A DNA stretch of 64,000 nt from a virus (IMGVR_UViG_3300032770_000022:1142-65141); one strand, 5' to 3'. Positions 6,619 to 39,945 are shown, numbered from the stretch's first letter. A program made the numbers and translations. Notes: generated by a model not told the origin, from the letters alone.

Positions 6619-6631
6619 TGGGGGTGGAAGC

Positions 6632-6921: not shown

Positions 6922-7118
6922 TCCTGGTCGCCGCCTTAGCGACCACGCCATCAATCGCCGACCGCGAGAACTTCGTTCGATGGGCGCGGTGCGAATACGT
7001 GGCCGGCGTGTTCACCTATGCGCAGATGAAGCTCGTGACCGGCGCCGACTGGCCGCATTGGTATGCGCTTCTCACTGAAAATGGCACGGCGGACTGCCCT
7101 TGGGATGCGTTCAGATGA
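6915..7118 (+). CDS. Small hypothetical (secreted?) protein
   Basis: Hydrophobic N-terminus; overlaps neighbours. Confidence 0.35.
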   Translation: MLILVAALATTPSIADRENFVRWARCEYVAGVFTYAQMKLVTGADWPHWYALLTENGTADCPWDAFR

Positions 7119-7726
7119 GAGGGATACCAGTAGACATTTCCGGCAGACGTTATGGACGCCTAGTGGCCATCGAGCGGCTTGGTTTCAGGAAAGGTGAGGC
7201 GCTATGGAAGTGCCTGTGTGATTGCGGGACTTCAAGAATTGTTCCGCTGCGATGTCTAAGAGGAGGCATTTCGTCATCCTGCGGCTGTCATCGGCGAGAC
7301 AGAATGAAGGCGCTTGCCTTTCGTCATGGGGAAACGGGAACGCCAACTCATAGATCGTGGTCTTCAATGAAGCAAAGGTGCACCAATCCAGCAGTTATAT
7401 CGTGGAAGTATTATGGCGCCAAAGGGATTAGGGTATGCAACAGATGGAATGTATTTGCTAATTTTCTTGCCGATATGGGAGAAAGACCGCCGGGGACTTC
7501 TCTAGAGCGTCTAGACAATACCCGTGACTATTGCCCCGAAAACTGCGTGTGGGCTACTCCTCAACAACAATGTAGGAACAAGCGGACCAACCGCTTGGTG
7601 ACCTATGATGGGCAAACCAAGCCATTGGCACAGTGGGCAGATGAGGTCGGGATAAACAGGAAGGCCCTTGCTGCCAGACTAAAACGAGGGTGGACCTTAG
7701 AAAAAGCGTTCACAAGTCCGATCTGA
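7115..7726 (+). CDS. Phage HNH-type homing endonuclease-like protein
   Basis: 'YGRLV..WKCLCDCG..SCGC', 'SMKQRC.NP', 'SLERLDN..DYCPENCVWAT..Q..N'; visibly lower GC than flanks. Confidence 0.8.
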   Translation: MRGIPVDISGRRYGRLVAIERLGFRKGEALWKCLCDCGTSRIVPLRCLRGGISSSCGCHRRDRMKALAFRHGETGTPTHRSWSSMKQRCTNPAVISWKYYGAKGIRVCNRWNVFANFLADMGERPPGTSLERLDNTRDYCPENCVWATPQQQCRNKRTNRLVTYDGQTKPLAQWADEVGINRKALAARLKRGWTLEKAFTSPI

Positions 7727-10893: not shown

Positions 10894-12675
10894 TCATCCT
10901 CTCCTGTAGACGCTCAGGCGCGCGTGCTTCTGGTCGAACGCGACCTTCGCCTTGGCGAACAACTCCGGCTTCTCGACCTTCAACCGCTGCATCGTCTTCA
11001 TCGCGCCCTTCACGGCTGTATCAAATATCGCCGCGCCCTGGGCGTTGAGCGGGATCGCTTCAAGGTCCCGCAACTGCGTCTCGACCCATGCCTCGTCGTC
11101 ATCGGCCTGCGACTCCTGCTTCGCGGCCTTCGCTTTGGGCTTGAGCGCGATGAGCCAGTCAGGAGCAAACAATCCGTTCTTGCGCAGGAATTGCTCTATC
11201 GCCTCCAGCAGCAACGGACGCTGACCCGCTGGCATGCCTTCGATCGTCTGACGCTGCGCTTCCCACCACGCGTCGGTAATCATGGCCGTAGCCATAACGC
11301 GCATGAACTCATGACGGTATGCGGGCCAGTCCAATTTGTCGCCTTTCATCGGCACAGACACAGCGAGAATTATAGGGTCGTCTGCTGGCATCTTCTCGCC
11401 ATCGCCGTCGTCGCCGGGCAGCGGCGGTTCCTCGTCCAGCACGGCGAGAATACGCGCGGCCTCCGGAAACGCTCGCGCCGCGCCGATCGCATCCTCGTTG
11501 TTCTCTGTGATCGTCGCCATCCAGTCGGTATTGTCATTCACCCCGTTCCACAACGCGACCAGATCGCGCGCAAACGCCACCGGATTGCGGTACGGCTCAT
11601 TCATGACATCGCCATACTGATCGATCAGCACCGCCTCGAATTCGGGCGTGGACTCTGGTGGCGGCGGTTCCGGCTGACGCTGCGCCGTAGGCGGTTCCTC
11701 GCGCCGCCTGTCCGTGTGCGCCGCACCGGGATCGCGCCCCTGCCGGACCGGCTCGCGCGGATCGGGCTGCTCGTCCTCCGGCACGTCTGGTATGCCGTCC
11801 ATCGGCGTCGCGGTGCCGTCGATCACCGTGCCGAAATCAAGCCGGTGTCCGCCTTCCTGCGCGTCCTCGATGCCGATGCCGGCGCGAAGCTCCGGGCACT
11901 TCGGCAGCAGCTTCGCGAGACGGCGCAGCACCGTCTTGCGTCCCATCTCCGGCGCATCGCGCACCCACGCGGCTTCGAGCCATGTGTTCGGGAGGCGTTC
12001 GCTTTTGTCCTCCGCGCGTTCCTTCGCCGCGAGCGCGGTGCGGTAGCTCTGGCTGCGGTTGCGGATGCCGAGGATTTCGGTCCACGACATGATCTCGAAT
12101 TCCTCGCCCTCGTTGAGGAACTGCGCGATCGCGTAGCAGCCGCGCGGCGTCAGGCTGCTCGTGTCGAGGTCGATGTTCGGCTTGTGGCGGATGAACCGCT
12201 CCGATCCCTTCTCGTAGTCGAATACCTCGCCGGGGAACACGACGCCGGTCGCGATGTCCTTGATGAACCCGGAACGGAAGGCGAGCTCGACGTAGCCTGG
12301 ATAGCCGATGATCAGGTTCAGGTCGTACCCCGCATCGACCCACTCACCCTTGACCTTCTTGCGGCGGGCGAACGGTATCAGATGGCTTTGCTGCAACACG
12401 GTGCCGGGCACCAGCCCGAGATAGGTCAGCGACATGAACGCGCCGAGGGACTGGCGCAGGTCGCACTTGTAGATCAGCGGCGTCTTGCTCGCCGCCTGGA
12501 TGAACGCGCGCAGCATCGTCTCCGCGTTCAGGTGCTTCGGGATCGCGGCGTTCATAATATCTTTCAGTTCCTTCGTGTCGAACGCCTCGGCCAGACTGGT
12601 GCAGTCCTTCAGCTTCTTGAACCCGGCCTTCGTCGGCATCGTCGCCACGTTGTCGGCCTTTGCTGTCTCGCTCAT
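10894..12675 (-). CDS. recT: RecT-family single-strand annealing recombinase with long C-terminal extension
   Basis: 'AIPKHL..E.MLR', 'LGLVP', 'HLIPF', 'IIGYPGYVELAFRSG', 'EMGRKTVLRRLAKLLP'. Confidence 0.85.
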   Translation of the reverse strand: MSETAKADNVATMPTKAGFKKLKDCTSLAEAFDTKELKDIMNAAIPKHLNAETMLRAFIQAASKTPLIYKCDLRQSLGAFMSLTYLGLVPGTVLQQSHLIPFARRKKVKGEWVDAGYDLNLIIGYPGYVELAFRSGFIKDIATGVVFPGEVFDYEKGSERFIRHKPNIDLDTSSLTPRGCYAIAQFLNEGEEFEIMSWTEILGIRNRSQSYRTALAAKERAEDKSERLPNTWLEAAWVRDAPEMGRKTVLRRLAKLLPKCPELRAGIGIEDAQEGGHRLDFGTVIDGTATPMDGIPDVPEDEQPDPREPVRQGRDPGAAHTDRRREEPPTAQRQPEPPPPESTPEFEAVLIDQYGDVMNEPYRNPVAFARDLVALWNGVNDNTDWMATITENNEDAIGAARAFPEAARILAVLDEEPPLPGDDGDGEKMPADDPIILAVSVPMKGDKLDWPAYRHEFMRVMATAMITDAWWEAQRQTIEGMPAGQRPLLLEAIEQFLRKNGLFAPDWLIALKPKAKAAKQESQADDDEAWVETQLRDLEAIPLNAQGAAIFDTAVKGAMKTMQRLKVEKPELFAKAKVAFDQKHARLSVYRRG

Positions 12676-28449: not shown

Positions 28450-28947
28450 ATGTCTATTGGTCCTGACGACAAACCAGAGGAACAAAAGCCGCCGGAAAGG
28501 AACAAGGGCGGCCGGCCTCGTTACCAGCCGAAACCGCAGGACAGGCAACTCGTTCATGCCCTCCATGCCCACGGTTTCAGCCTTCGGTTTATCGCCAAGA
28601 AAGTCGGCATCGATGTGACCACGCTGCGCAAGGCGTTCCGCGAGGACCTCCGCCAGGCGCATGAAGAGATCAAAGCGGCGATGGTCGCCTCGCTCCTGCG
28701 GTCAGCCAACGGCGGAGCCTGGGGTGCAGCGAAGTACTGGCTCATGTGCTTCGGCGGGCCTGAATGGAAGCCGCCCAGGGAAGCTGAGGACGTACTGCCG
28801 CCAGGCGCGAACGCCGGGAACACCACCATCGTCATCCGGGGCGGGCTGCCGCCGCAGGTTTACACCGACGCCGGGCCGGACATCGAGGGCGTGCCCCCGA
28901 AGATGAACGGCAGGGGCAATGGTGCAGACCCAGACCATCCAGCTTGA
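28450..28947 (+). CDS. terS: Terminase small subunit
   Basis: 'GGRP', HTH 'IAKKVGIDVTTLRK.F..DL', 'AAKYWL'; directly upstream of TerL. Confidence 0.75.
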   Translation: MSIGPDDKPEEQKPPERNKGGRPRYQPKPQDRQLVHALHAHGFSLRFIAKKVGIDVTTLRKAFREDLRQAHEEIKAAMVASLLRSANGGAWGAAKYWLMCFGGPEWKPPREAEDVLPPGANAGNTTIVIRGGLPPQVYTDAGPDIEGVPPKMNGRGNGADPDHPA

Positions 28948-30271
28948 CGCCCATCGCTCGAAGGGCTGGCGCGCATCGCAGAAGCGGCGGGACGGAGGGC
29001 TGGAGCTAGAGCTCGACCTGCCCACGCTGCACGAGGACCAGGCGCGGGCCTACAACATGCCGGCGCGGTTCAAGGCGATCCGGGCGGGCAGGCGCTGGGG
29101 CAAGACGAGTCTTGCAGAGCTGGTCGCGATCGACGCGGCGGTGCGCGGCGAGTACGTGGGCTGGTTCGCCCCTGAGTACAAGTTCCTGTCGGAAGCCTAT
29201 ACCGACATCGCCGGGCAGATGGCGCCGCTGATCTGGTCATCGTCCAAGGTCGAGGGCGTGATGCGCACTACGACAGGCGGGCGCATCGACTTCTGGTCGC
29301 TGGACAATGAGCGCGCGGGCCGGTCGAGGCGCTACCACAAGGTCATTATCGACGAGGGCGCGTTCACCAAGCCGAACATGATGGACATCTGGGACAAGTC
29401 CATCCGGCCCACGCTGGTCGACTACCGAGGCTCCGCGCTGGTCACGTCCAACACGAACGGCATCGACGCGACCAACTTCTTCTACTCGATCTGCAACGAC
29501 CCGAAGCACCAGTTCAAGCAGTACCACGCGCCGACGCACCGCAATCCGTACATGCCGGCGGACGAGCTCGCGGAGATCGAGGCGAAGACGCACCCGCTGG
29601 TCTATCAGCAGGAATACCTCGCCGAGTTCGTGGACTGGTCGGGGCAGGCGTTCTTCAGCCAGATGTCGCTGCTCGACAAGGACGGCCACGCCTATCCCTA
29701 TCCGGTCGTGTGCGACGCGGTGTTCGCGGTGGCCGACACCGCGATCAAGGACAAGAGTGAGAACGACGGAACTGCGGTGACGTTTTACGGCCGCAACCGC
29801 GCGGTGCCCGGCGTGCCGCTGCTGATCCTGGACTGGGACATCATCCAGGTGCAGGGATCGCTGCTCGAGGTCTGGCTCGCCAAGGTGTTCGAGCGCCTGG
29901 AGCAATTGGCGAAGATGTGCCGGGCGCGGCACGGCTCGGTAGGTGCATGGATCGAGGACAAGGGATCGGGTACGATCCTGCTACAGCAGGCACGCAGGCG
30001 GGGCTGGGACGCGCACCCGATCGACAACGACCTGACGAAGCTCGGCAAAGACGCCAGGGCGATCAACGTCTCGGGCTACGTGCATCGCGGCATGGTCAAG
30101 TTCACGCAGCCCGCTTACGACCGCGTGGTGACCTACAAGGGCGTAACGCGCAACCATCTGCTCGCCCAGGTCGTCGGCTACCGTGTGGGCATCGACAGCG
30201 GCGCGGACGACGCGCTGGACACGTTCACCTACGGCGTGGCTATCGCGCTCGGTGATGCCAAGGGGTTCTGA
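28919..30271 (+). CDS. terL: Terminase large subunit
   Basis: 'AGRRWGKT' Walker A, 'IIDEG' Walker B, 'YQQEYLAEF', nuclease 'ADTA', 'IEDKGSG', 'DDALD'. Confidence 0.93.
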   Translation: MVQTQTIQLDAHRSKGWRASQKRRDGGLELELDLPTLHEDQARAYNMPARFKAIRAGRRWGKTSLAELVAIDAAVRGEYVGWFAPEYKFLSEAYTDIAGQMAPLIWSSSKVEGVMRTTTGGRIDFWSLDNERAGRSRRYHKVIIDEGAFTKPNMMDIWDKSIRPTLVDYRGSALVTSNTNGIDATNFFYSICNDPKHQFKQYHAPTHRNPYMPADELAEIEAKTHPLVYQQEYLAEFVDWSGQAFFSQMSLLDKDGHAYPYPVVCDAVFAVADTAIKDKSENDGTAVTFYGRNRAVPGVPLLILDWDIIQVQGSLLEVWLAKVFERLEQLAKMCRARHGSVGAWIEDKGSGTILLQQARRRGWDAHPIDNDLTKLGKDARAINVSGYVHRGMVKFTQPAYDRVVTYKGVTRNHLLAQVVGYRVGIDSGADDALDTFTYGVAIALGDAKGF

Positions 30272-31752
30272 TGTCCGACAGCTTCAACTCCCCTCCGTCA
30301 TCGACGCTGAACGCGGGCGGCTCGCAGCTCGGCACGGAGTTGATGTCGCTGCTGATCGCCAACGACATCCAGCCCGGTGACTCGCCGTCCTACCAGATAT
30401 GCAAGACGATCTATCTCTATCACCCGCTCGGCGCGAAGATGGTCGAGGCGCCGCTGAACATCGCGCAGTCCCAGGCGCGCGAGATCGACGTGCCGGGCCA
30501 TCCCGAGCGCGTGGCGCGCGCCTTCCTCGACGAATGGAAGCGCCTGCACACGGACGTGCTGATCTTTAACACCGCGAGGACCGCGCGCATCTACGGCATC
30601 TCGTCGGTGGTCGTGGGCGCGGTGGACAAGCCCACGAACGCGCCGCTGACGCCCAAGGAGCTCGCCGGCGAGCAGCTTTTCTTCAACGTGCTGGACCCGC
30701 TGAACACGGCGGGCAGCCTGGTGCTGAACCAGAACCCGAACTCGCCCGACTTCCAGGCGGCGACGACCGTGGTGACCGGCGGGCAGACGTACCACCGCTC
30801 CCGCGTCTGCATCATCATGAACGAACAGCCGATCTACATCGCCTACACAAGCTCGTCCTTCGGCTTCGTCGGCCGCTCGGTCTACCAGCGCGCGCTGTTC
30901 CCGCTCAAGTCCTTCATCAACACGATGATCGCGGACGACATGATCGCGCGGAAGCTCGGGCTGCTGATCGCCAAGATGGAGGCGCCGTCGTCCGTCATCG
31001 ACAAGATGATGACCGGCCTGCTCGGCATGAAGCGCGCGCTGCTCCAGCAGGCGCAGACGGACAACGTGCTGGGCATCGGCAAAGAGGAAGACATCGCCAC
31101 GCTGAACATGATGAACGTGGACGGCGCGGGCACATATTCGCGTAACGATATTCTGAAAAATTGCGCAACCGCAGCGGATATGCCGGCGGTGCTGTTGGAG
31201 AATGAGACGTTAGTGCAAGGCTTCGGCGAGGGGAGGGAAGACGCAAAACGCATTGCTGAATATGCCGACCGCGTGCGCGAATGGATGCAGCCGCTATACG
31301 ACTTCTTCGACGGCATCGTGCAGCAGCGTGCATGGAACCGAGACTTCTTCGCCTCGATGCAGCAGGATGATCCCGAGACTTATGGCAATATGCGTTATGA
31401 GGCGGCGCTGTCCAAGTGGCGCGCAGCGTTCACCGCGACTTGGCCATCGTTACTGCGAGAACCTGAATCGGAACGAGTCAAAGTTGATGATACTAGGCTC
31501 AGGGCAACCATCGCACTGATGCAAGTCATGGTGCCGATGCTCGATCCGACCAATAAGGCGACGTTCTTCTCGTTCGTCGAGGATGCGATCAACTCCGCTG
31601 AAATGTTGTTCCCTGGTAAGTTGACGTTGGATGTCGAGGCTCTGGCTGATTTTACCCCGCCGACACCAGGCATGAATGGCGAAAGCGGGGATCAGGGAGG
31701 TGGCTTGGCTCAGCCAAAACCACCAGCATTCAGAATGAAGGCTGCCGCCTGA
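30271..31752 (+). CDS. Portal protein (DUF1073-like)
   Basis: Position after TerL; 'ARIYG', 'YHRSR', 'GRSVY', 'AADMP..LL'. Confidence 0.85.
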   Translation: MSDSFNSPPSSTLNAGGSQLGTELMSLLIANDIQPGDSPSYQICKTIYLYHPLGAKMVEAPLNIAQSQAREIDVPGHPERVARAFLDEWKRLHTDVLIFNTARTARIYGISSVVVGAVDKPTNAPLTPKELAGEQLFFNVLDPLNTAGSLVLNQNPNSPDFQAATTVVTGGQTYHRSRVCIIMNEQPIYIAYTSSSFGFVGRSVYQRALFPLKSFINTMIADDMIARKLGLLIAKMEAPSSVIDKMMTGLLGMKRALLQQAQTDNVLGIGKEEDIATLNMMNVDGAGTYSRNDILKNCATAADMPAVLLENETLVQGFGEGREDAKRIAEYADRVREWMQPLYDFFDGIVQQRAWNRDFFASMQQDDPETYGNMRYEAALSKWRAAFTATWPSLLREPESERVKVDDTRLRATIALMQVMVPMLDPTNKATFFSFVEDAINSAEMLFPGKLTLDVEALADFTPPTPGMNGESGDQGGGLAQPKPPAFRMKAAA

Positions 31753-31753
31753 T

Positions 31754-31782
31754 TTGCTTTGGTGCGTTGGTCTGCATACAAT
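31754..31782 (+). promoter_or_regulatory. Sigma70-type promoter of guide array A
   Basis: TTGCTT (31754-59), 17-nt spacer, TACAAT (31777-82). Confidence 0.7.
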
Positions 31783-31789
31783 CGGCCTC

Positions 31790-31929
31790 GGCTCGGCAAG
31801 GCATGGATTGCCAAGGCAACGCTGGGTGCGGCACGACGCGTCGCGGCAGGCATGGCACGACCCGGCGCGGCTCGGTATGTCAAGGCTCGGTATGGCGTGG
31901 TGAAAGAGGCGGCTTCGGTCGCCTCTTTC
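31790..31929 (+). ncRNA. GGY-NN pentamer guide array A (two units separated by GGCA) with 3' hairpin
   Basis: 11 + 10 in-register pentamers (ggc-tc ggc-aa ggc-at gga-tt ...), then GAAAGAGGCGGC-TTCG-GTCGCCTCTTTC. Confidence 0.8.
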
Positions 31930-31940
31930 TTTGCCCGCAT

Positions 31941-32095
31941 TTGACAAACGGAACAGGGACGGCTTAGGGTCGCATCGCGTTGCCATCACAGCGCAAGCGC
32001 GATGCTGATCCAGGACTTCCAATGGCCCCGGTGATGCTTCGCATCCCCTGTGTTCGCGCCGGGCGTGATGGGCCGGGCGCCATTGGAGGGCTAAC
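31941..32095 (+). promoter_or_regulatory. Promoter and structured 5' leader of the RAMP-like gene
   Basis: TTGACAAACGGAACAGG; CTTCCAATGGC (32016-26) pairs with GCCATTGGAGG (32079-89), covering the RBS. Confidence 0.55.
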
Positions 32096-32812
32096 ATGCC
32101 ACTAGACCAAGCAACTGCCGGGCGGCGTTCCCGCACGGAGAAGATCACCATCCCGTCGCTGTCTGCGGCGGAAATCGAAGCAGCCAAGGCAGCCGGACAG
32201 CCAGAGATCATCCGGATCGAAAAGCCGAAGCTGCGCACGGCCTCCATCCCGATCGTTGGTATCTCGCCATACGTGCAGCATGCGTTCAGCGAGAAGCAGC
32301 GGAAGAAGATGGAGGAGACGCAGCGGGCCGGACAGCAGGCGCGCGGCAAGAAGAACCGCCAGCCCAAGGACTTCGAGGAGGTCTACGAGGCCGCGAAGCA
32401 CATCAGCAAGGACGGCTGGTGCGGCATTCCGGCTCCCGCATTCCGCAACGCGATGATCGACGCGTGCCGGCTCGTGGGCTTCAAGATGACGCACGCCAAG
32501 CTGTCGGTATTCGTCGAGGCTGACGGGTTCGATCGCAACGACGGGACACCGCTAGTCAAGATCGTCGGCGAGCCGCACATCCACGAGGCGGCGGTGCGCA
32601 ACGACAGCGGCGTGGCGGACATCCGCTGGCGGCCGATGTGGGACGAGTGGTCCGCGCTCGTGCGTGTCACCTGGGACGAGGACCAGTTCTCGGCAACGGA
32701 CGTAATGAATCTGATGCTCCGCGCCGGCTTGCAGGTGGGCATCGGGGAGGGACGGCCCAACAGCCCGAAGTCGAACGGGCTGGGCTGGGGCCGGTTCGAG
32801 GTGAAGTCATGA
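32096..32812 (+). CDS. Stand-alone RAMP/Cas7-like RNA-binding protein, candidate guide effector
   Basis: 'IPIVGISPY' (beta1), 'GIPAPAFRNAM' (RAMP IPxSxLKG-type motif) and C-terminal Gly-rich loop 'GIGEGRP...GLGWGRFEV'. Confidence 0.75.
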   Translation: MPLDQATAGRRSRTEKITIPSLSAAEIEAAKAAGQPEIIRIEKPKLRTASIPIVGISPYVQHAFSEKQRKKMEETQRAGQQARGKKNRQPKDFEEVYEAAKHISKDGWCGIPAPAFRNAMIDACRLVGFKMTHAKLSVFVEADGFDRNDGTPLVKIVGEPHIHEAAVRNDSGVADIRWRPMWDEWSALVRVTWDEDQFSATDVMNLMLRAGLQVGIGEGRPNSPKSNGLGWGRFEVKS

Positions 32813-33249
32813 GCGCGCGCATCCAAGCTGAATTGCTCACTCTGCGCGACAGCAACGGCATCATCGACGCCCGCCGTGCCGTCGATTGGGCGAAGCAGCA
32901 CCAGGACAGCGCCTTGTATCAGGCGCTCGAATGGGACGATGCGACGGCGGCGATCGAATACCGCATCAGTCAGGTGCGGCGCTTGATCGCGGTGCATATC
33001 GTGGACGCAGAAGGCCATCGGCAGGTCGTGTCGCTGTCGGTCGATCGCCAACAGGGCGGCGGCTATCGCAGCGTCCAGGACGTGCTGTCGGTCGATGACC
33101 TGCGTGCGGTGATGCTGTCCGACGCGCTCGAAGAATTGCAGCGAGTTCAGCGGAAATATGAGTATCTACAAGAACTGGCGAAAGTCTGGGAAGCCGCTCA
33201 GCAGGTCGAGCAGGAGACGCGACCGAGGCGCCGCCGCCGCGCGGCGTGA
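32809..33249 (+). CDS. Helical partner protein of the RAMP-like gene
   Basis: ATGA-coupled; 'LEWDDATAAIEYRISQVRRLI' motif; 146 aa. Confidence 0.7.
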   Translation: MSARIQAELLTLRDSNGIIDARRAVDWAKQHQDSALYQALEWDDATAAIEYRISQVRRLIAVHIVDAEGHRQVVSLSVDRQQGGGYRSVQDVLSVDDLRAVMLSDALEELQRVQRKYEYLQELAKVWEAAQQVEQETRPRRRRRAA

Positions 33250-33258
33250 TCACGATCA

Positions 33259-33590
33259 GGCAGGGCAGGCGGAGCATGGACCGTTCCGTCCTGGCATGGC
33301 GTGGCACGCTAGGGCTCAGCAGGCGGAGCATGGAGGGCAGGGTCGGGCGCGTCGCGTTAAGGCTGTGCTTGGCGCGGTTCGGGATGGCTCGGCAGGCTCG
33401 GCAAGGTTCGGCGCGATCAGGCCTGTCCAGGTCAGACTCGGCATTGCGGGGTAGGGCAGGCATGGCCCGGCAGGCGGAGCTTCGCTTGGCGCGGTCAGGC
33501 ATAGACCGGACCGGATCGGCAGGCTCGGTTAGGCGCGGCGCGAAGCGGCATGTCGCTGCTCGGCTGGTCCTGGAACGGCAGGCATGGAGG
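33259..33590 (+). ncRNA. GGY-NN pentamer guide array B (about five long units plus short ones, delimited by GGCA/AGCA)
   Basis: About 60 in-register pentamers; 4-nt delimiters at 33264, 33318, 33391, 33455, 33469, 33518, 33577. Confidence 0.8.
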
Positions 33591-33596
33591 TAGCCG

Positions 33597-34421
33597 GTGG
33601 CAACTTCTTTCTTCCAAGTTGTCACCGACGCCATCAATGACGTTGCCGAATTCGGATACGAATCAGAGGAACGGCTAGCGTATTGGCTAACGGAGATACG
33701 CCAGGCAGCCGAGCGCGATCTGATCTCCGAGGGCGGGCTACAGGCGCAACTCGATCGCGTGCTGGTCGCGACGTACCAGCGGCTGGTGGATCGCGGTCGC
33801 GTGTTGCAGCGCCATTCCGGGATCGCGAGATATACGCTCGAACAACTGCGGCCGCAGCTCCGTGCTGAACTGGATCGCAGAATCGCGGCATCCGCGAACC
33901 TGATCCGGCTCAATCGCGCGACGGCGATCAACGAAACGTTGCAACGGTTCTCTGGATGGGCGTCGTCCGTTCCCGCCGGCGGGACCGACATTACGAACCG
34001 ACGAGAGGTCAAAGCTAACGTCCGCAAGTCACTGGCAGGACTGCCGTTTGAGACCCGGCGTGTACTCGTGGACCAATCACATAAACTCTCGGCTGCGATC
34101 TCCGACATCGTTGCGATGGACCAAGATGCGATCGGCGCCGAGTGGCACTCGCACTGGCGCCAGCAAAACTATCAATATCGACCGGAACACAAAGCCAGAG
34201 ACGGGATCGTGTATCCGGTCAAGGACAGTTGGGCCGCGCAGCGCAGGTTCGTCAAAGCGGACGAGCATGGATTTTACGAAGATCACGAACGCGCAGGCGA
34301 AATGATTTTCTGCCGCTGCTGGATTCGCTGGATTTACGCGCTCAGGGATATGCCGAAGGAACTGCTGACGGACGCGGGGCGCAGGGCACTCGCGGACGCG
34401 CGGGCGAAGGTGATGGCCTGA
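33597..34421 (+). CDS. Head morphogenesis / minor head protein (Mu F, SPP1 gp7-like)
   Basis: 'WHSH...YRPEH..RDG', 'FCRC'; position after portal; GTG start with GGAGG. Confidence 0.8.
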   Translation: MATSFFQVVTDAINDVAEFGYESEERLAYWLTEIRQAAERDLISEGGLQAQLDRVLVATYQRLVDRGRVLQRHSGIARYTLEQLRPQLRAELDRRIAASANLIRLNRATAINETLQRFSGWASSVPAGGTDITNRREVKANVRKSLAGLPFETRRVLVDQSHKLSAAISDIVAMDQDAIGAEWHSHWRQQNYQYRPEHKARDGIVYPVKDSWAAQRRFVKADEHGFYEDHERAGEMIFCRCWIRWIYALRDMPKELLTDAGRRALADARAKVMA

Positions 34422-34568
34422 TCCGAGATGCGCGCGACGGTCGCGCTCATGCCTGGCCGGGAGGCGGTTCCCGGTGTCGTTAGTGGACGTTTCCTCCCAA
34501 CCTTGAGCGGCGCGCGTCTCTCTGACCCCTTCCTTGGTGCGCCGCTTTCTTTTCCCCCCGGAGACGCG

Positions 34569-36518
34569 ATGCCCGGCTTCGAGCTGATGTCGGGCGTGGG
34601 GGAGGACGACGCTGCGGCGGCCGAGCGCATCATCGACGCGCGGCTGGCAGAGCTAGGAGCGAGGTATCCGCGCCTGATCGCGCTGCTGGGCGGCACGCAC
34701 ATACGGCTCGCGCCTGGGGCGTTGCTTGAGGATAGCTGGCACGGCCAGAGCGACCCGGGCCGCATCACGCTGCCGGTGGAGCTGAAACAGGACCGATCGC
34801 CCGCGTCGCCCGGCGGCAGGCGCGTCGAGTTCGAACCGTCCCTGCTCGGTGTGCTGGACCACGAGATCGGCCATGAGATCGAGGCCGGGTTCGCTAAGGC
34901 AGCGGGCCTGGATATCGGCGAGTTGTTCGCGCGCCAGGACAGGGCGGCGATCGAGACCGGTCTCTCGCCCTACGCGGCGCAGGACGAGCACGAGTGGTTC
35001 GCGGAAAGTCTCGCCGCATGGCTGCATCCCGAGCGCCCGGCGGTGCACTTCGACCTGGACCCCGATCTCGCGCAGGCGTTCCAGCGCATCCTGACGACGC
35101 GCGGCGCGCACGACGCATCGTGGTGGACGTATCAAGCATCATCGCCGACTCCATCGTGGGAAGAAGCAATCGCCGCCGGAGCGTTCAAAGGCAGCAAGTC
35201 TGAATGGGAAAGCCTGTCTCCCGGCATGCGCCGCGAGATATTGCGGACCTGGAAACGGAAAGCCGACAGCGCCGGCCTGATCACGGTGGACGACGGCGAG
35301 ATCACGCCTCACGTCGAGAAGCACGAGGCGGACTACACGAACACGGGCGACGTGGAGCATTGCCGGCTGTGCGAGTTCTGGCGGCCGCCCGATGCGTGCG
35401 CGCTGGTGATCGGCACGATCAGCCCGGTCGGCTGGTGCAAGTTTTTCCAATGGCCCGACGGGCGGGCCGACACCGCAGGCGAGGCAGGCGACGATCCGGC
35501 GCAGCCGCTGGTCCGTGGCGCGGGCATGCTGCTGATCCATCACGGCGACGGCGGCGACCGCGTGCTGTTTGTGCTCAACAGGGAGCGCGGCACCTGGGAA
35601 TTTCCCGGCGGCGCCATCGAGGGCGACGAGACCGCCGAGGAAGCGGCCAAGCGGGAGACGCTGGAGGAAGTCGGCGAGATACCCTACGGCAGCGTGTCGC
35701 TGATGCTGCGCGACCGCATGACCGGCGTGGACTACTCGACGTTCATGGCGCAGGCGACGGGCACGCCCGAGCCGACGCTGAGCGACGAGCACACGGCCTG
35801 GAAGTGGGCCGCGCCGGGAGAACCGCCCGAGCCGCTGCATCCCGGCGTGCGCCTCGCCCTGGCCCGCCTGGGCATGAACGAACTAGACCTCGCGCGGGCG
35901 ATCGCGTCGGGCGAGTACTCGAGTCCGCAGCAGTTCGAGAACATCTGGCTCTATGCGCTGCGCATCACCGGCACCGGGATCAGCTACCGGCCCGAGTTGA
36001 GTGAATTCGTCTGGCGCGATCCAAAGCTCTATCTCAATGCGGACTTCCTCGCACGCTGCAACGGCCTGGCCGTCATCTGGCAGCATCCGCCGGGGGAAAG
36101 CCTGACGCAGGACGAGTACGAGAACCGCGTGCTGGGCGCGATCATGCTGCCCTACGTCGCTGGCGACGAGGTGTGGGGCATCGCGAAGATTTACGACCAG
36201 GACGCGGCGCTGATGATGCTCAACCAGCAGCTATCGACCTCGCCAGCTGTCGTGTTCCGTGATCCTGGCGCGAATAAAATCCGCAAATTAACTGGCGGCA
36301 AGCATTTACTAATCGAGGCGGAGCCGTCACTCTTGGACCATCTCGCGATCTGTGGCTTGGGCGTATGGGACAAGGGCGGCAGCCCGACCGGCGTCGCTGT
36401 GGGCGAAGCAGAGATGGCAGATGGCCATATCGAGGTTCCAGATCGAGCGGACGCAATTGCCGAACTGAACCGTGCAATTGCTTGGATGGACCTCACAAGG
36501 GTCACGTCCGCGCTCTGA
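34569..36518 (+). CDS. Multidomain prohead protease-like protein: zincin HExxH + HiPIP-like Cys cluster + NUDIX + DUF2213
   Basis: 'HEIGH..YA...EWFAE'; 'CRLC..C..ISPVGWC'; Nudix box 'GGAIEGDETAEEAAKRETLEEVG'; 'RITGTG..YR..RDP..HP..LSTSP..DHLAIC..GVWD'. Confidence 0.8.
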   Translation: MPGFELMSGVGEDDAAAAERIIDARLAELGARYPRLIALLGGTHIRLAPGALLEDSWHGQSDPGRITLPVELKQDRSPASPGGRRVEFEPSLLGVLDHEIGHEIEAGFAKAAGLDIGELFARQDRAAIETGLSPYAAQDEHEWFAESLAAWLHPERPAVHFDLDPDLAQAFQRILTTRGAHDASWWTYQASSPTPSWEEAIAAGAFKGSKSEWESLSPGMRREILRTWKRKADSAGLITVDDGEITPHVEKHEADYTNTGDVEHCRLCEFWRPPDACALVIGTISPVGWCKFFQWPDGRADTAGEAGDDPAQPLVRGAGMLLIHHGDGGDRVLFVLNRERGTWEFPGGAIEGDETAEEAAKRETLEEVGEIPYGSVSLMLRDRMTGVDYSTFMAQATGTPEPTLSDEHTAWKWAAPGEPPEPLHPGVRLALARLGMNELDLARAIASGEYSSPQQFENIWLYALRITGTGISYRPELSEFVWRDPKLYLNADFLARCNGLAVIWQHPPGESLTQDEYENRVLGAIMLPYVAGDEVWGIAKIYDQDAALMMLNQQLSTSPAVVFRDPGANKIRKLTGGKHLLIEAEPSLLDHLAICGLGVWDKGGSPTGVAVGEAEMADGHIEVPDRADAIAELNRAIAWMDLTRVTSAL

Positions 36519-36521
36519 AAA

Positions 36522-36607
36522 GGAAAAGGCGGCCGAAGCCGCCCTTTCCACCATGCCATGCCGGGCCTCGCTCGTCCCAGCCACGCCTATCCTCGCCTTG
36601 ACGCACT
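36522..36607 (-). ncRNA. GGY-NN pentamer guide array C (one unit) with 3' hairpin
   Basis: Minus strand: gtc-aa ggc-ga gga-ta ggc-gt ggc-tg gga-cg agc-ga ggc-cc ggc-at ggc-at ggt, then GGAAAGGGCGGC-TTCG-GCCGCCTTTTCC. Confidence 0.8.
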
Positions 36608-36608
36608 G

Positions 36609-36637
36609 ATATTACCCGACCGCATAGCGGACGGCAA
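36609..36637 (-). promoter_or_regulatory. Sigma70-type promoter of guide array C
   Basis: TTGCCG, 17-nt spacer, TAATAT on the minus strand. Confidence 0.7.
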
Positions 36638-36736
36638 ACCCAACCCGATCAGGGATCGCCCCGGCCTGATCGGCTCTTTCTCGTGGGCAACACGATGCGC
36701 ACCGCCGATATGGCGTCGCAGCAGGAGACAACTGAA

Positions 36737-37876
36737 ATGGCTGACAATTCGTCTTCGCTTGAGGCGAAGCTCGATGTGCTTGTCGCCGCGACGACGAAGA
36801 TCGGCGAGGCGGTGACCGCTCAGAACGCACGAATGGACTCGATCGAACAGCGGATCGGCGCCCGCAAGGACGACGATGACAAGCGCGATGATGACCGGAA
36901 GCGGGACGACGACGACGACCGCAAGGATCGCCGTCGCGATGACGATGACCGTCGCCGGGATGATGCGCGCCGCCGCGCCGATGCCTTCAAGTTCAGCCCA
37001 CGCAAGGACGACGATGACGACGACGCGTTCAAGAAGCGTCGCGATGCGGAACAGGGCGAGCTTGAGAAGGAGTTGAAGGAAGGCGGCGAGGACGAGGGCA
37101 AGGCGAAGGAGACCGCTGCCGACCGCCGCAAGAAGGCGGACGACGACGACGACAAAGCGCGCAAGGATGCGATGGACAAGAAGCGCGACGATGCGCGCAA
37201 GCGGGCGGACGCGTTCAAGTTCTCGCCCAGGCACGACGACGACGACGACGACAAGGCGAAGTCGCGCAGGGACGCCGAGGAGGAAGAACTCGCGAAGGCG
37301 CACGAGGAAGGCGGCGACGACAAGGACGACGCCCGCCGCAAGGCCAAAGATGCGCGCAAGAAGGCCGACGACGACGACGACAAGAAGCGGGACGACGCGC
37401 GCCGCGACAGCACGTTCGACCGCCGGCTGCGCGATCTGGAGCGCGCCCGCAGCATGTCCGACGAGGAAGTCAACAAGCTCGCGGAGATGCAGCAGTCGTG
37501 GGCCGAGGTCGCTCAGGCGCACGGCCTGACGGTGCACCGCACGGTCGACGGCGACACGCCGGAGAGCTTCAACCGCAGGCAGGCCAAGCGCTTCCAGAAG
37601 TTCTCCAAGAAGTGGAAGGACGAGGACCTCGGCGGGCTGCCGACCACGACGATGACCAACATCGCCGGGCCGGAAATCCGCACGGATTCGATCAAAGCCG
37701 CTTACCAGGGCGTCGGTGCCGAACCTGGAGTTTTACGGGAGATCAAGCGCTACGATCGAGTGGGCCGGCCGATAAGCGAGTTCAGCGGCCCGATCAGCGC
37801 GATGCTGGACCAGTTCAGCCTGCCGAACATGAAGGTCGTCGGCGGCATCAACCCGCAGCGCGCCGCCGGCTTCTGA
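36737..37876 (+). CDS. Capsid scaffold-like protein, D/K/R-rich with internal duplication
   Basis: Between protease and capsid genes; duplicated 'RADAFKFSPR..DDDDD..RRDAE' block. Confidence 0.7.
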   Translation: MADNSSSLEAKLDVLVAATTKIGEAVTAQNARMDSIEQRIGARKDDDDKRDDDRKRDDDDDRKDRRRDDDDRRRDDARRRADAFKFSPRKDDDDDDAFKKRRDAEQGELEKELKEGGEDEGKAKETAADRRKKADDDDDKARKDAMDKKRDDARKRADAFKFSPRHDDDDDDKAKSRRDAEEEELAKAHEEGGDDKDDARRKAKDARKKADDDDDKKRDDARRDSTFDRRLRDLERARSMSDEEVNKLAEMQQSWAEVAQAHGLTVHRTVDGDTPESFNRRQAKRFQKFSKKWKDEDLGGLPTTTMTNIAGPEIRTDSIKAAYQGVGAEPGVLREIKRYDRVGRPISEFSGPISAMLDQFSLPNMKVVGGINPQRAAGF

Positions 37877-37895
37877 GCATAGAAAGGGAAATCCA

Positions 37896-38777
37896 ATGGC
37901 TTCGAACATCTCCTTCAACCCTGTGCTCACCACGGTCGCGGCGGGCACGTTCACCGTCCAGACGGACGGATTCATGCAGGGCGTCTTCCTCGACGATCCC
38001 GCGATCAGGAACGAGCTGGTCCAGGGCATCTTGGCAACGACCGAGACGCTGCCGATGTGGGGCGGCATCGCGATCTATGAGAATATCCCCGGCGTCTCCG
38101 GCGGCCCGGCGGACAATCTCGGCTCGGTCATCGGCCGCGCCACGAGCAATGCGGCTATCGCTGGCTTCTCGACCTTCAACCAGGCGTCGAACTTCATCAC
38201 GACGCCGCAGAGCGAGGCGCCATCCGCTGGCCAGAGCATGTCGGTGCCGTACTTCCGGCTCGGCTCCGGCGCGCGCATCGCCGTGCAGTGCGATCCGGGC
38301 CTCGCCGCGCTTGAGGGCGCGACGACCAGCCCGCAGGTGTCCTGGGATATCAACAACCAGGTCTTGCAGGAGTACGTCGCCTCCGGCGCGACCGAGGCGG
38401 TTACGTCGATGACCTGGAGCGCCACCAACGGCGGGCAGATTGCCGTGGTGATGACTGGCGCATCGGTCTTCGGGCTGGGCGATCAGGTCTACGTGTCGGG
38501 CGCGACGAACACTGGCACCGGTGGCGCGTCTGCCGTCAACGGCAGGTTCGTGATCAACACCTGGACGGACACGACGCACTTCACGCTGCTCGCTCCCGCC
38601 GCCTCGGGCGTGATCGGCACGATCGGCGGCACGATCGTCCTGAACGTCGGCATCGGCGCTTTGGCTGTCAAAGTGCTGAGCCTACACCTCGGGAACAGCC
38701 GCACGATCCTGTACGATCCGGTGCAGAATTTCGTCCACTGGCAGAACGGCGGGAACGTCGCGATCATCCAACTCTGA
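37896..38777 (+). CDS. Capsid cement/decoration protein
   Basis: 'G..QG..LDDPAIR..L..G......PMWGGI.I.E', 'RLGSGARI.V'; precedes the MCP. Confidence 0.65.
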   Translation: MASNISFNPVLTTVAAGTFTVQTDGFMQGVFLDDPAIRNELVQGILATTETLPMWGGIAIYENIPGVSGGPADNLGSVIGRATSNAAIAGFSTFNQASNFITTPQSEAPSAGQSMSVPYFRLGSGARIAVQCDPGLAALEGATTSPQVSWDINNQVLQEYVASGATEAVTSMTWSATNGGQIAVVMTGASVFGLGDQVYVSGATNTGTGGASAVNGRFVINTWTDTTHFTLLAPAASGVIGTIGGTIVLNVGIGALAVKVLSLHLGNSRTILYDPVQNFVHWQNGGNVAIIQL

Positions 38778-38780
38778 AAC

Positions 38781-38898
38781 AAAACGGCTGGCTCCGAAGA
38801 ACCAGCCGTTTTTCCACTCCATGTCTCGCCCCGCCTCGGCTGGCCGTTTCCAGACGTGCCCAGCCCCGCCTCGCCTCCATGCCAACCCGGCTCGCGCC
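38781..38898 (-). ncRNA. GGY-NN pentamer guide array D with 3' hairpin
   Basis: Minus strand: 12 in-register pentamers (38875 to 38816) plus about 4 upstream, then AAAAACGGCTGGTTC-TTCG-GAGCCAGCCGTTTT. Confidence 0.8.
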
Positions 38899-38931
38899 AG
38901 GCGCGCTAGCCTTTAGCACAAGGATACCGAA

Positions 38932-39945
38932 ATGGCCACAATCAGCCCGAGCTGGACGCAGGTGCATCCGAGTTTCATCGAGCCGGACATCCTGCTTCAG
39001 TACAACCAGGCGTCCGGTTTCCGCTATCTCCTCGCCGGTTCGGAGCCTCGTACGAAAATCGGCAGCGAGGACCTCTACGTTTACATTAAGCGGATGGATA
39101 TACGCACGCGCGTCTCGTCCGCGCAGGCGGCGGGCAACCAGCTTCCGTCTGTCTCGGTGTCGATGAACATGATATCGACGCCGACCTATCTCGATCGGGT
39201 GCGCGCGGAGTACGACCACCACGACACGGCTGCGACCGCCGAGTGGGGCGCGTCCATCGTCGAGGTGCAGCGTCTTGGCATGCGGCAGGGATGCAACCAG
39301 CTCCTCCGCAACAAGACGCTGTATGGCCTCAATCCTGGCGAGGGGATCGTCAATACGCCCAGCGCGACCACCGTCTCGCTGCCGGCGGATACCAACGGCA
39401 ACACGACGTTCTCGACCTACGACAACGGGCAACTTGCGCTGTTCCTGTTGACGCAGATCACCGCGCTCAAGTCGCGCACGATGCAGTTCGGCATGCCCAA
39501 CCGGTTCCAGTTCCTCGGGCCGCAGCGCATCTTGGGCGGCATGGCGACGCAGAACATCGTGCAGCTTGTCCAGTACCAGCGGCCCGGCGCGGGCACCGAC
39601 ACGACGCGCGGGCTTGTCACGAAGGTCGAGGAGGAACAGGGCGACGAAATCCTGTGGACCTACGACGATACGCTGATCGGGAGGGGATCGGGCGGCACGG
39701 ACCTGATCATCCTGGCCATGCCAGAGGTGAGAAAGCCCACGGCATCGCCATTCAACACCAACGAGTTCGCCAATCTCGCGCCCGGGCTGGACGCGTGCCT
39801 GCTCCAGTACATCGACATGCCTGCGCCTCGGGAGATTCCAACGCCGCTGCCGGGCGGGGCGATTGATGTGGTGTCTGAATGGCGTTCGACATGCGGCTGG
39901 GCACCGAGGCCAGAAGCGGTTACACTGATCAGCATGGGCTTCTGA
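38932..39945 (+). CDS. Major capsid protein
   Basis: 337 aa, position after the cement gene, followed by a hairpin. Confidence 0.75.
   Translation: MATISPSWTQVHPSFIEPDILLQYNQASGFRYLLAGSEPRTKIGSEDLYVYIKRMDIRTRVSSAQAAGNQLPSVSVSMNMISTPTYLDRVRAEYDHHDTAATAEWGASIVEVQRLGMRQGCNQLLRNKTLYGLNPGEGIVNTPSATTVSLPADTNGNTTFSTYDNGQLALFLLTQITALKSRTMQFGMPNRFQFLGPQRILGGMATQNIVQLVQYQRPGAGTDTTRGLVTKVEEEQGDEILWTYDDTLIGRGSGGTDLIILAMPEVRKPTASPFNTNEFANLAPGLDACLLQYIDMPAPREIPTPLPGGAIDVVSEWRSTCGWAPRPEAVTLISMGF

What the first reader, a model, noticed from the sequence alone, without database searches (positions are those of the whole stretch)
31754..38930. Orphan guide mini-genes sit next to the genes they target, like a homing or allele-drive architecture
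Arrays A, C and D are self-contained 90-140-nt units. A has TTGCTT-17-TACAAT and C has TTGCCG-17-TAATAT; D's promoter is unclear. All three end in GG(T/A).. plus an A-tract stem with a C-UUCG-G loop. Each lies in the intergenic gap beside its decoded target (portal, protease, MCP), in either orientation. Inference: tight linkage of a guide to a resistant allele lets the pair spread in mixed infections by blocking the rival's head genes or favouring recombinants. This parallels free-standing homing endonucleases but is programmable and served in trans by one effector. RecT is available for allele exchange.
Basis: inference. Interest (0 to 1): 0.85.

Follow-up and report, generated by a model that had tools for sequence, protein, structure and literature searches.

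The report
VIPR guide genes beside immune alleles
This phage carries the recently described CRISPR-like VIPR system, plus small guide-RNA genes placed next to its own head genes; the guides spell those genes as rival relatives carry them, not the phage's own altered copies, so each weapon sits beside its antidote.

Summary
Four 5-nt-periodic GGY-NN arrays lie at 31.79-31.90k(+), 33.26-33.59k(+), 36.55-36.60k(-) and 38.82-38.88k(-). A, C and D end in UUCG hairpins.

Reading the NN pairs against every third-base-skipped position gives a best hit in the flanking gene each time:
- Guide D: MCP codons 3-14, 8/12 in the window, 11/12 in relatives, shuffles at most 8.
- Guide A1: portal, 8/11 own, 9/11 relatives.
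- Guide C: the 696-aa head gene, 6/10 own, 8/10 relatives.

The system is not new. It is VIPR (Vipr RAMP protein, Vap, vrRNAs, 1-nt wobble-skip code), described in three 2026 bioRxiv preprints that also report solo vrRNAs. The 238-aa gene at 32096-32812 matches the SUSP1 Vipr structure.

What I did not find in the preprint text I read:
- In a VIPR+ phage, each guide gene sits next to the phage's own sub-threshold copy of its target.
- Self-immunity comes partly from Ser TCN>AGY and Leu TTR>CTN switches.
- The mini-genes are absent from relatives that carry matching alleles.

The homing or drive reading is untested, and no nuclease is evident. Two other dispersed solos that I examined show no such adjacency. 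Earlier notes of this scan report similar "weapon beside antidote" guides in three other genomes; I did not check them.

The parts
31754..31782 (+). promoter-like site of array A (TTGCTT, 17 nt, TACAAT)
   Evidence: Read. It matches 8 of 12 consensus positions and is not called by the generic scan.
31790..31848 (+). vrRNA guide unit A1 (11 guide pentamers plus a GGCAG junction)
   Evidence: Register parse. Its single best code match in the window is in the portal gene.
31849..31903 (+). vrRNA guide unit A2 (11 pentamers); target not found
   Evidence: no hit above shuffles.
31903..31933 (+). 3' hairpin (UUCG loop) with U-tract; tail and terminator of array A
   Evidence: -29.3 kcal/mol, z -5.7.
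32096..32812 (+). vipr: a 238-aa RAMP/Cas7-like guide-binding protein
   Evidence: A profile of 21 homologues hits PDB 36pp_D 'SUSP1 Vipr protein' at E 4e-4. The AF2 model's top Foldseek hits are Csm3/Cmr/Cas7 RAMPs. It matches phrog_4652. 4,240 homologues were found.
32809..33249 (+). vap-like accessory gene (146 aa); start overlaps the vipr stop
   Evidence: It matches phrog_15946. Homologues lie next to vipr in 31 of 72 loci. The AF2 model has pLDDT 91, with weak winged-helix matches only and no nuclease fold.
33259..33592 (+). main downstream vrRNA array B; about 6 units of 9-12 pentamers plus short ones, joined by GGCAG junctions; it runs into the RBS of the next gene
   Evidence: No targets found.
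36609..36637 (-). promoter-like site of solo guide C (TTGCCG, 17 nt, TAATAT)
   Evidence: Read. It matches 8 of 12 positions and is not called by the generic scan.
36548..36597 (-). solo vrRNA guide C (10 pentamers; the last may belong to the tail)
   Evidence: Best match is 8/10 at the homologous site of L003.
36522..36549 (-). 3' hairpin (UUCG loop) of C; also a terminator for the upstream + strand gene
   Evidence: -23.5 kcal/mol, z -3.7. It is 82% identical to A's tail over 50 nt.
38816..38898 (-). solo vrRNA guide D (12 guide pentamers at 38875-38816, preceded by 4 pentamers)
   Evidence: It matches relatives' MCP at 11/12.
38781..38812 (-). 3' hairpin (UUCG loop) of D; bidirectional terminator
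   Evidence: -24.7 kcal/mol, z -4.6.
31144..31176 (+). the phage's own portal copy of the A1 target (8/11 NN, codon positions 1-2)
   Evidence: Mismatches include Leu CTG where the guide has TT.
36003..36032 (+). the phage's own copy of the C target in the 696-aa Nudix-domain head gene (6/10 NN)
38938..38973 (+). the phage's own MCP copy of the D target, codons 3-14 (8/12 NN); all three Ser codons are AGY where the guide has TC

Best explanation
The stretch holds a complete VIPR locus and two dispersed solo guide genes.

The VIPR locus is an upstream vrRNA pair (A1 and A2), vipr, a vap-like gene and a downstream vrRNA array (B). It is inserted between the portal and MuF-like head genes. The solo vrRNA genes C and D sit on the opposite strand in two further gaps of the head module.

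By analogy with the published SUSP1 and P. fulva systems, Vipr subunits polymerise on the GGY triplets and present the NN pairs. The NN pairs bind double-stranded DNA while skipping every third base, and this silences transcription.

Guides A1, C and D are wobble-aligned to conserved stretches of the portal, the 696-aa head protein and the first codons of the major capsid gene, as related phages carry them. They match those relatives at 80% of NN positions or more. The phage's own copies match at only 60-73%, below the level the preprints use for a target. Part of that gap comes from the only synonymous changes the code can see (Ser TCN to AGY, Leu TTR to CTN).

I infer that these guides interfere with close relatives in mixed infection or superinfection. 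I also infer that each guide gene sits beside its immune allele because recombinants that separate them would silence their own head gene. That makes it a poison-antidote linkage.

Shown here: the anatomy, the code matches, family membership and the allele pattern. Inferred: expression, loading on Vipr, silencing, and the reason for linkage.
For: Arrays and register.

Code matches:
- D's single best hit among about 128,000 positions of the window is MCP codons 3-14 (8/12).
- A1's single best hit is in the portal gene (8/12 with 12 units).
- C's 6/10 in the flanking gene is one of three ties.
- All three matches are in codon register 1.

Against the window plus 80 relatives, with 30 shuffles each: D 11/12 against at most 8; A1 9/11 against at most 8; C 8/10 against at most 7. 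In four whole genomes with 100 shuffles: D 11 against at most 8; C 8 against at most 7. Only the 1-nt skip beats shuffles; skips of 0 and 2 do not.

Family membership:
- The profile hits PDB 'SUSP1 Vipr protein' at E 4e-4.
- The fold is RAMP-like.
- 67 of 72 loci with a homologue have a 5-nt-periodic array next to it. Only L005 does among 80 capsid relatives.

Relatives:
- The portal-MuF gap is 1-3 nt and the p293-MCP gap 15-51 nt, with no array there.
- G001 is complete and has no Vipr.
- D matches 9-11/12 in the 8 relatives with at least 74% MCP identity, against 8/12 in the window's own gene.
- All 3 Ser codons in the D site are AGY, against 3 of the other 19 Ser codons in MCP. My Fisher arithmetic gives p = 0.013.

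Published mechanism.
Against: - No RNA data exist for this phage. The promoters match only 8 of 12 positions and the generic scan does not call them.
- A1's own match (8/11) is reached by 5 of 100 shuffles. 9/11 was reached by 1 of 30 shuffles in the metagenome set.
- C did not beat shuffles in that metagenome set (7/10).
- A1's own allele matches no worse than most relatives. A1 shares a TG codon with the own gene that 0 of 67 distinct relative sites have. Its true target is therefore unsampled, or it acts on self.
- How many mismatches this Vipr tolerates is unknown.
- 6 of 9 units (A2 and the five B units tested) have no target in any set searched.
- Across 289 units from 67 loci, best hits did not exceed shuffles.
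- Two other dispersed solos (L086, L130) have no nearby partial self match.
Confidence: 0.75

Rival explanations
1. This is the first reader's full reading: a homing or gene-drive cassette. Binding of the guide complex to the rival allele provokes recombination, with RecT, so that the guide gene and its resistant allele are copied into the rival genome. This would resemble marker exclusion by free-standing homing endonucleases.
For: - Each of the three guides with a found target lies within about 650 nt of the own copy of its target.
- The mini-genes are insertions that relatives lack.
- The own alleles match less well than relatives'.
- A RecT domain is present at window 11902-12516.
- The published ternary complex is an R-loop or triplex, which in principle could be recombinogenic. 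That last point is my inference.
Against: - No nuclease was found in the locus. Vap resembles winged-helix DNA binders.
- Published systems with DNA-binding Vaps repress transcription.
- No relative carries any of the mini-genes, so no conversion tract or spread can be seen.
- Nothing was tested experimentally.
Confidence: 0.12
2. The guides are self-regulators. With partial matches of 60-73%, they dampen or time the phage's own portal, 696-aa gene and capsid gene, for example keeping late genes quiet in a lysogen. They lie next to the genes they control for that reason.
For: - In each case the best in-window match is the neighbouring own gene.
- D's site covers codons 3-14, right behind the MCP start, a good place for a roadblock.
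- A1 shares an own-lineage codon (TG at unit 7) that 0 of 67 relatives have.
Against: - The preprints found no self hit at 80% NN or above and treat lower matches as non-targets. They report that perturbing NN pairing abolished silencing.
- Relatives match better than self for D and C.
- All three Ser codons in the D site are of the non-matching family. That looks like avoidance of pairing, not maintenance of it.
Confidence: 0.1
3. The adjacency is coincidental. Solo guide genes can only settle in the few intergenic gaps of the late operon, and head genes are the best conserved targets among relatives. Neighbours would then be hit by chance, with no selected linkage to an immune allele.
For: - Only three guides are involved, and one of them (A) is simply part of the vipr operon.
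- Two other dispersed solos show no adjacency.
- AGY Ser codons also occur at the D site in relatives without the guide: L004 1 of 3, L005 1 of 3, L006 2 of 3.
Against: - Even if targets are restricted to the nine head-module genes, with two neighbours each, three of three adjacent gives about (2/9)^3 = 0.011. Genome-wide the figure is about 8e-6. Both are my arithmetic.
- The own D site is the poorest match in its clade.
- Three unchecked earlier notes of this scan describe the same arrangement in other genomes.
Confidence: 0.15

Closest known systems
VIPR systems (Vipr + Vap + vrRNAs), exemplars Escherichia phage SUSP1 and a Pseudomonas fulva prophage; bioRxiv 10.64898/2026.04.26.720920 (Results, Discussion and three Methods sections read) and 10.64898/2026.04.26.720927 (abstract and one Results section read)
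   Same: - A small RAMP-like protein with a sequence match to the SUSP1 Vipr structure.
- An adjacent small accessory gene.
- Guide RNAs of 9-16 GGY-NN pentamers, one set upstream and an array downstream.
- The 1-nt skip rule, aligned to the wobble position.
- Targets on either strand.
- No self hit at 80% NN or above.
- Targets in competing phages.
   Different: - Vipr here is only distantly related: one 50-residue stretch aligns at E 4e-4.
- Array units are joined directly by GGCAG junctions with a -1 register shift, without a pseudoknot tail. Terminal units end in a plain UUCG hairpin.
- The identified targets are structural genes of close relatives, not satellites or lysis-lysogeny regulators.
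- Which of the seven published types this belongs to could not be decided, because the supplements are closed.
Solo (orphan) vrRNAs of F5 satellites and of VIPR-null SUSP1-like phages; bioRxiv 10.64898/2026.10.15.759431 (abstract, Results sections 7-8, Discussion and one Methods section read)
   Same: - Stand-alone vrRNA genes away from vipr.
- They are served in trans.
- Self-match scores are lower than non-self scores, so autoimmunity is avoided.
- Targets are wobble-aligned.
   Different: - Here the solos are in a phage that keeps its own vipr.
- They lie in the head module on the opposite strand.
- Each sits next to the carrier's own homologue of its target.
- Published solos target vipr, other vrRNAs, satellites or host REP decoys. 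Adjacency to an immune allele is not mentioned in the text I read.
Free-standing homing endonuclease genes of T-even phages and their marker exclusion (recalled from general knowledge; no paper read here)
   Same: - A small selfish gene sits in an intergenic gap next to the gene whose rival allele it attacks.
- The carrier's own allele is resistant.
- Relatives lack the insert.
   Different: - No nuclease is evident here.
- Recognition is by a programmable RNA on a shared effector.
- The expected action is silencing, not cleavage.
- Co-conversion is not shown.
Class 1 CRISPR-Cas backbone proteins (Cas7/Csm3/Cmr4)
   Same: The predicted fold's best PDB matches are Csm3, Cmr and type VII Cas7 chains. 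One subunit binds per repeat of the guide.
   Different: - There is no CRISPR array, no cas1 or cas2, and no other cas genes.
- The guide period is 5 nt with 2 nt read, against 6 nt with 5 read.
- TM-scores are only 0.33-0.45.

Membership tests
VIPR system | Vipr protein: a small RAMP-like protein homologous to published Vipr | tested here: met
   A profile of 21 homologues hits PDB 36pp_D 'SUSP1 Vipr protein' at E 4e-4 over residues 169-219. The AF2 model (pLDDT 74) has Csm3/Cmr/Cas7 RAMPs as top Foldseek hits, E from 2.5e-4, probability about 1, TM 0.33-0.45. Pfam has no model for it.
VIPR system | vrRNAs of about 9-16 tandem GGY-NN (YNNGG) repeats flanking vipr | tested here: met
   Units of 9-12 pentamers lie upstream and downstream of the gene. 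Over 395 units from 67 loci the pentamer composition is G 0.93, G 0.89, C 0.79, N, N. 67 of 72 homologue loci carry arrays.
VIPR system | Conserved structured 3' tail on each vrRNA | tested here: inconclusive
   A2, C and D end in UUCG hairpins, and the A and C tails are 82% alike. Internal units of A and B are separated only by GGCAG junctions. The preprint mentions staggered or overlapping arrays in supplementary figures that I could not see.
VIPR system | Adjacent vap accessory gene | tested here: met
   A 146-aa gene overlaps the vipr stop. Homologues lie next to vipr in 31 of 72 loci. The confident model gives only weak winged-helix DNA-binder matches. Identity with a named vap1-6 could not be tested.
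VIPR system | Targets follow the 1-nt skip rule, with the skipped base at the codon wobble position | tested here: met
   Only skip = 1 exceeds shuffles for A1, C and D. All three hits are in codon register 1. No target was found for the other 6 of 9 units.
VIPR system | No self target at 80% NN match or above | tested here: met
   The best own-genome matches are D 8/12, A1 8/11 and C 6/10.
VIPR system | vrRNAs are expressed, bind Vipr, and the complex binds dsDNA and represses transcription | not testable with these tools
   No listed run is on record as RNA.
Solo (orphan) vrRNA | A vrRNA gene standing apart from a vipr operon | tested here: met
   C lies 2.9 kb and D 5.2 kb beyond the end of array B, on the opposite strand, with genes between. 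A does not qualify, because it lies about 190 nt upstream of vipr. The published caller defines solo as no Vipr within 20 kb, which C and D do not meet. They are dispersed guides of a VIPR+ phage.
Homing endonuclease-like drive | A nuclease that cuts the sensitive allele | tested here: not met
   The mini-genes hold no ORF of their own. The Vipr fold is that of backbone RAMPs, and Vap shows no nuclease fold. Catalysis itself is not testable here.
Homing endonuclease-like drive | Co-conversion or spread of the insert with flanking markers among relatives | tested here: inconclusive
   No relative with any of the inserts was found among 80 + 11 + 80 capsid-relative loci, so nothing can be compared.

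The most novel reading that the evidence does not exclude
VIPR guide genes and the immune alleles beside them may form selfish poison-antidote cassettes that are general in phages. Each guide would silence, and perhaps provoke recombination at, the sensitive allele of close kin. In mixed infections the guide and its linked recoded allele would then be inherited together and sweep through a phage population. The recoding would run through the six-fold codon families (Ser, Leu, Arg), the one synonymous escape route that the wobble-skipping code leaves open.
Probability: 0.2. Interest if true: 0.8.

Novelty: new variant of a known kind. Interest (0 to 1): 0.55.

Why it matters
VIPR was described only in 2026, and its natural targets so far are satellites, prophage regulators and other VIPR loci. 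This phage suggests three further points:
- The system is also aimed at the structural genes of the carrier's closest relatives.
- Guide genes can leave the operon and settle beside the carrier's own immune copy of the target.
- Immunity can be bought with Ser and Leu codon-family switches. That qualifies the published argument that skipping the wobble base closes off synonymous escape.

If the linkage is general, it gives a testable rule for finding the targets of solo guides: look next door. It would also provide a natural example of a programmable poison-antidote pair in viruses.

Tried and rejected
- Rfam at gathering thresholds found no family in the window.
- The generic promoter and terminator scan called none of the quoted promoters or the three hairpins. 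I rely on reading and folding instead.
- I ran all 289 distinct units from 67 loci against 4.4 Mb of held loci. Best-hit mismatches did not differ from shuffles. Only guide D and one L088 unit stood out among 158 units of 10 or more pentamers (4 real against 3 shuffled at 2 mismatches or fewer). So no general statement about targets can be made from my sets.
- A2 and B1, B2, B3, B5 and B6 found no target above shuffles in the window, 91 capsid-relative loci, three whole relative genomes or 80 metagenome loci.
- Weaker periodicity peaks at 27.2k, 29.9k and 41.2k are not arrays: 5 GG in 7-14 pentamers and no target. I read the 0.35k peak but did not test it further.
- Array-like calls in L019/L203 and L104 are false positives on reading.
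- The CGC-NN array of L005/G003 found no target in four genomes.
- Pfam gave no DUF2213 or protease match for the 696-aa protein. The only protease hint is another record's annotation under a 72-nt DNA match (H8).
- No RNA holder is listed for the stretch. Laying two DNA runs' contigs gave nothing on RNA ends or variants of use.
- No binding prediction was run.
- A search of IMG/VR with skip-degenerate guide queries, as in the preprint, was not done (see below).
- The supplements of all three preprints are closed. Their data S3, figs S17-S22 and Supplementary Fig. 3 may bear on array types, on which VIPR type this is, and on whether adjacency was already noted.

Full report
**What is in the sequence**

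The window is an IMG/VR virus record of 65,141 nt with 63% G+C. The stretch lies in its head module, all on the + strand:
- large terminase, 28919-30271
- portal, 30271-31752
- two small genes, 32096-32812 and 32809-33249
- a MuF-like head morphogenesis gene, 33597-34421
- a 696-aa protein with a NUDIX domain, 34428-36518
- a 397-aa gene rich in charged repeats, 36683-37876
- a 293-aa gene, 37896-38777
- the major capsid gene (MCP), 38932-39945

A Fourier scan for 5-nt periodicity puts four regions far above background: 31751-31911 and 33241-33591 on the G strand, and 36541-36631 and 38811-38881 on the C strand. Written in register they are runs of GGY-NN pentamers.

Array A has two units joined by a GGCAG junction with a one-base register shift. 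B has about six longer units of the same build plus short ones. C (10 pentamers) and D (12, preceded by 4 more) lie on the - strand.

They match only 8 of 12 consensus positions, and the generic scan does not call them.

A, C and D each end in a stable A-tract/U-tract hairpin with a C-UUCG-G loop. The tails of A and C are 82% identical over 50 nt. Rfam has no family for any of this.

**The decoding claim**

I tested this without choosing the place. Each unit's NN string was slid over all ~128,000 positions of both strands at a spacing of three.
- D's single best hit (8/12; next best 7) is MCP codons 3-14, 63 nt from the array.
- A1's single best hit (8/12 with 12 units; next best 6) is in the portal gene about 615 nt upstream.
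- C's best score (6/10) is shared by three places, one about 520 nt upstream in the flanking 696-aa gene.

All three hits are in codon register 1. A1 and C read like the coding strand and D like the template strand.

Against the window plus 80 capsid-relative loci, the best hits fall on the homologous sites of relatives and exceed 30 shuffles of the NN order:
- D 11/12, shuffles at most 8
- A1 9/11, shuffles at most 8
- C 8/10, shuffles at most 7

With 100 shuffles in four whole genomes, D (11 against at most 8) and C (8 against at most 7) hold. A1's own 8/11 is reached by 5 of 100 shuffles.

When the skipped gap is varied, only a gap of one base beats shuffles. Gaps of 0 and 2 do not, and a gap of 3 merely finds the arrays themselves.

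In a further 80 metagenome loci:
- D again reaches 11/12.
- A1 reaches 9/11, but 1 of 30 shuffles also reached 9.
- C reaches only 7/10, not above shuffles.

D is therefore solid. A1 and C are supported mainly by where their hits fall.

**What the system is**

The 238-aa gene between A and B has 4,240 homologues, none with a name given by its source. Of 72 loci holding a homologue (71 from IMG/VR plus one GenBank phage), 67 have a strongly 5-nt-periodic G array next to the gene, at G+C from 35% to 69%. Among 80 capsid relatives, only L005 has an array-like run.

A literature search then showed that this is published. VIPR systems consist of a RAMP-like Vipr protein, an accessory Vap, and vrRNAs of 9-16 YNNGG repeats. 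The NN pairs recognise double-stranded DNA with one skipped base, usually the wobble base, on either strand and without a PAM. Binding silences transcription of competing phages and satellites (bioRxiv 10.64898/2026.04.26.720920; Results, Discussion and three Methods sections read).

A structural companion preprint shows Vipr filaments that bury each GGY and present each NN (10.64898/2026.04.26.720927; abstract and one section). A third preprint describes solo vrRNAs on satellites and on phages that lost vipr, with self-match scores lower than non-self (10.64898/2026.10.15.759431).

Membership here rests on my own tests:
- A profile of 21 homologues hits the PDB chain named SUSP1 Vipr protein (E 4e-4).
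- The predicted fold's best matches are Csm3, Cmr and Cas7 backbone proteins.
- The 146-aa neighbour recurs next to vipr in 31 of 72 loci.
- That neighbour folds confidently into something that only weakly resembles winged-helix DNA binders, with no nuclease fold.

**Relatives with and without the inserts**

The closest capsid relatives (MCP 74-81% identical) lack all of this:
- The portal-MuF gap is 1-3 nt in L003 and L006, against 1,844 nt in the window.
- The p293-MCP gap is 15-51 nt in L003, L005 and L006, and L179, L181 and L184 show no array there. The window's gap is 154 nt.
- The gap after the 696-aa gene is 19-95 nt in two relatives and 482 nt in L005 by longest ORF, against 164 nt in the window.

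No array lies in any of these gaps. G001, the complete record behind L003, has no Vipr homologue.

At the D site the eight relatives with at least 74% MCP identity match the guide at 11, 10, 10, 9, 10, 9, 11 and 11 of 12 positions (L181 and L184 are identical there). The carrier matches at 8 of 12, the lowest in its clade.

The peptide is the same in seven of the eight (L180 has Ala at the first Ser position). Three of the carrier's four mismatches are Ser codons of the AGY family where the guide reads TC. In the rest of its MCP only 3 of 19 Ser codons are AGY. My Fisher arithmetic gives 20/1540 = 0.013. AGY also occurs at this site in some relatives (1-2 of 3 in L004, L005 and L006).

At the C site the carrier has 6/10 and L003 8/10. 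Across 86 sites the range is 2-8.

At the A1 site the carrier has 8/11 and 76 relatives range from 3 to 9. One own mismatch is Leu CTG where the guide reads TT. The guide also shares a TG codon with the carrier that none of 67 distinct relative sites has. A1's ideal target therefore looks like an unsampled sibling of the carrier.

All own matches are below the 80% level that the preprints use. The best relatives are at or above it.

**How general is the adjacency**

- Within this genome, all three guides with a found target lie beside the own copy of that target. By my arithmetic this is about 8e-6 if sites fell anywhere in the window. It is about 0.011 if targets are restricted to nine head genes with two neighbours each.
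- Array A is simply the upstream guide of the vipr operon, so only C and D are truly dispersed.
- Among 72 VIPR loci I found two other clear dispersed solos with the same kind of UUCG-hairpin tail (L086/L087 and L130/L133). Neither has a nearby partial self match.
- No other VIPR locus in my set shares this head module.
- Three earlier notes of this scan describe a solo guide beside the carrier's altered copy of its target in other genomes. I could not check them, and they are leads only.

**Mechanism and rivals**

The best-supported account has three parts:
- Vipr loaded with A1, C and D binds the portal, 696-aa and capsid genes of close relatives and blocks their transcription.
- The carrier is spared because its own copies fall below the matching threshold.
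- Guide and immune allele are kept together because a recombinant with the guide but a sensitive allele would shut off its own head gene.

Expression, loading, silencing and the selective reason are inferred. It has no nuclease, no conversion tracts and no second carrier to compare. Self-regulation and coincidence remain possible at low odds.

**Novelty**

The system is known and the locus is a new, distant member. I did not find the following in the parts of the three preprints that I read (word searches):
- dispersed guides in a VIPR+ phage that sit next to the carrier's own immune alleles
- structural genes of kin as targets
- codon-family switching as the visible route to immunity

The supplements were closed. 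I rate this a new variant of a known kind, of moderate interest.

Noticed in passing
L005 1335-1570 (record G003), with a Vipr-like ORF at G003:C1:35550-36140: A capsid relative (MCP 76% identical) carries a different 46-pentamer array at the same portal-MuF junction. It reads CGC-NN on the gene strand (37 of 46 pentamers start with CGC). A 197-aa ORF nearby matches the window's Vipr only distantly (E 4e-5). It may be another VIPR type using a related repeat consensus. No target was found in four genomes.
   Followed up: partly
L083 (BK059895.1, 'Cyanophage Cy-LDV1') 5842-7440: A deposited phage genome holds a complete VIPR-like locus annotated only as hypothetical proteins. Gene g34 is the Vipr homologue (58% identical). 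GGC-NN arrays lie at about 6480-6680 and 7275-7435, on either side of g33. The locus sits in the early region near exo, bet and ssb.
   Followed up: partly
L088 unit starting near 11401 against L091 about 7245-7274: One guide unit of one VIPR phage matches the vap-like gene of another VIPR locus at 9 of 10 NN positions (its single shuffle reached 6). [quoted passage not shown]
   Followed up: partly
L086 8600-8740 (-) and L130 7640-7756 (-): These are dispersed solo guide genes 1.3-2.3 kb upstream of vipr on the opposite strand. Each ends in a UUCG-loop hairpin like A, C and D of the window, and L130's has a promoter-like site. No nearby self match was found.
   Followed up: partly
window 33578-33599: The last junction of array B (GGCAG, then GGCAT GGAGG) supplies the Shine-Dalgarno sequence for the GTG start of the MuF-like gene at 33597. 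Guide array and head gene therefore share a transcript and overlapping signals.
   Followed up: no
window 36876-37410: The 397-aa gene after guide C holds many imperfect direct repeats that encode Asp-, Lys- and Arg-rich stretches (families D1-D6, D9 and D16), as scaffold-like proteins often do. Pfam gives no match.
   Followed up: no
window 10894-12675 (-): The RecT domain (PF03837, 89.5 bits) lies inside an open frame of about 593-599 aa. From memory that is much longer than usual RecT proteins, so it may be a fusion.
   Followed up: no
window 31941-31946: A perfect TTGACA hexamer follows array A's terminator, about 150 nt before vipr. It could be the -35 element of a vipr promoter. I saw no good -10 partner.
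   Followed up: no
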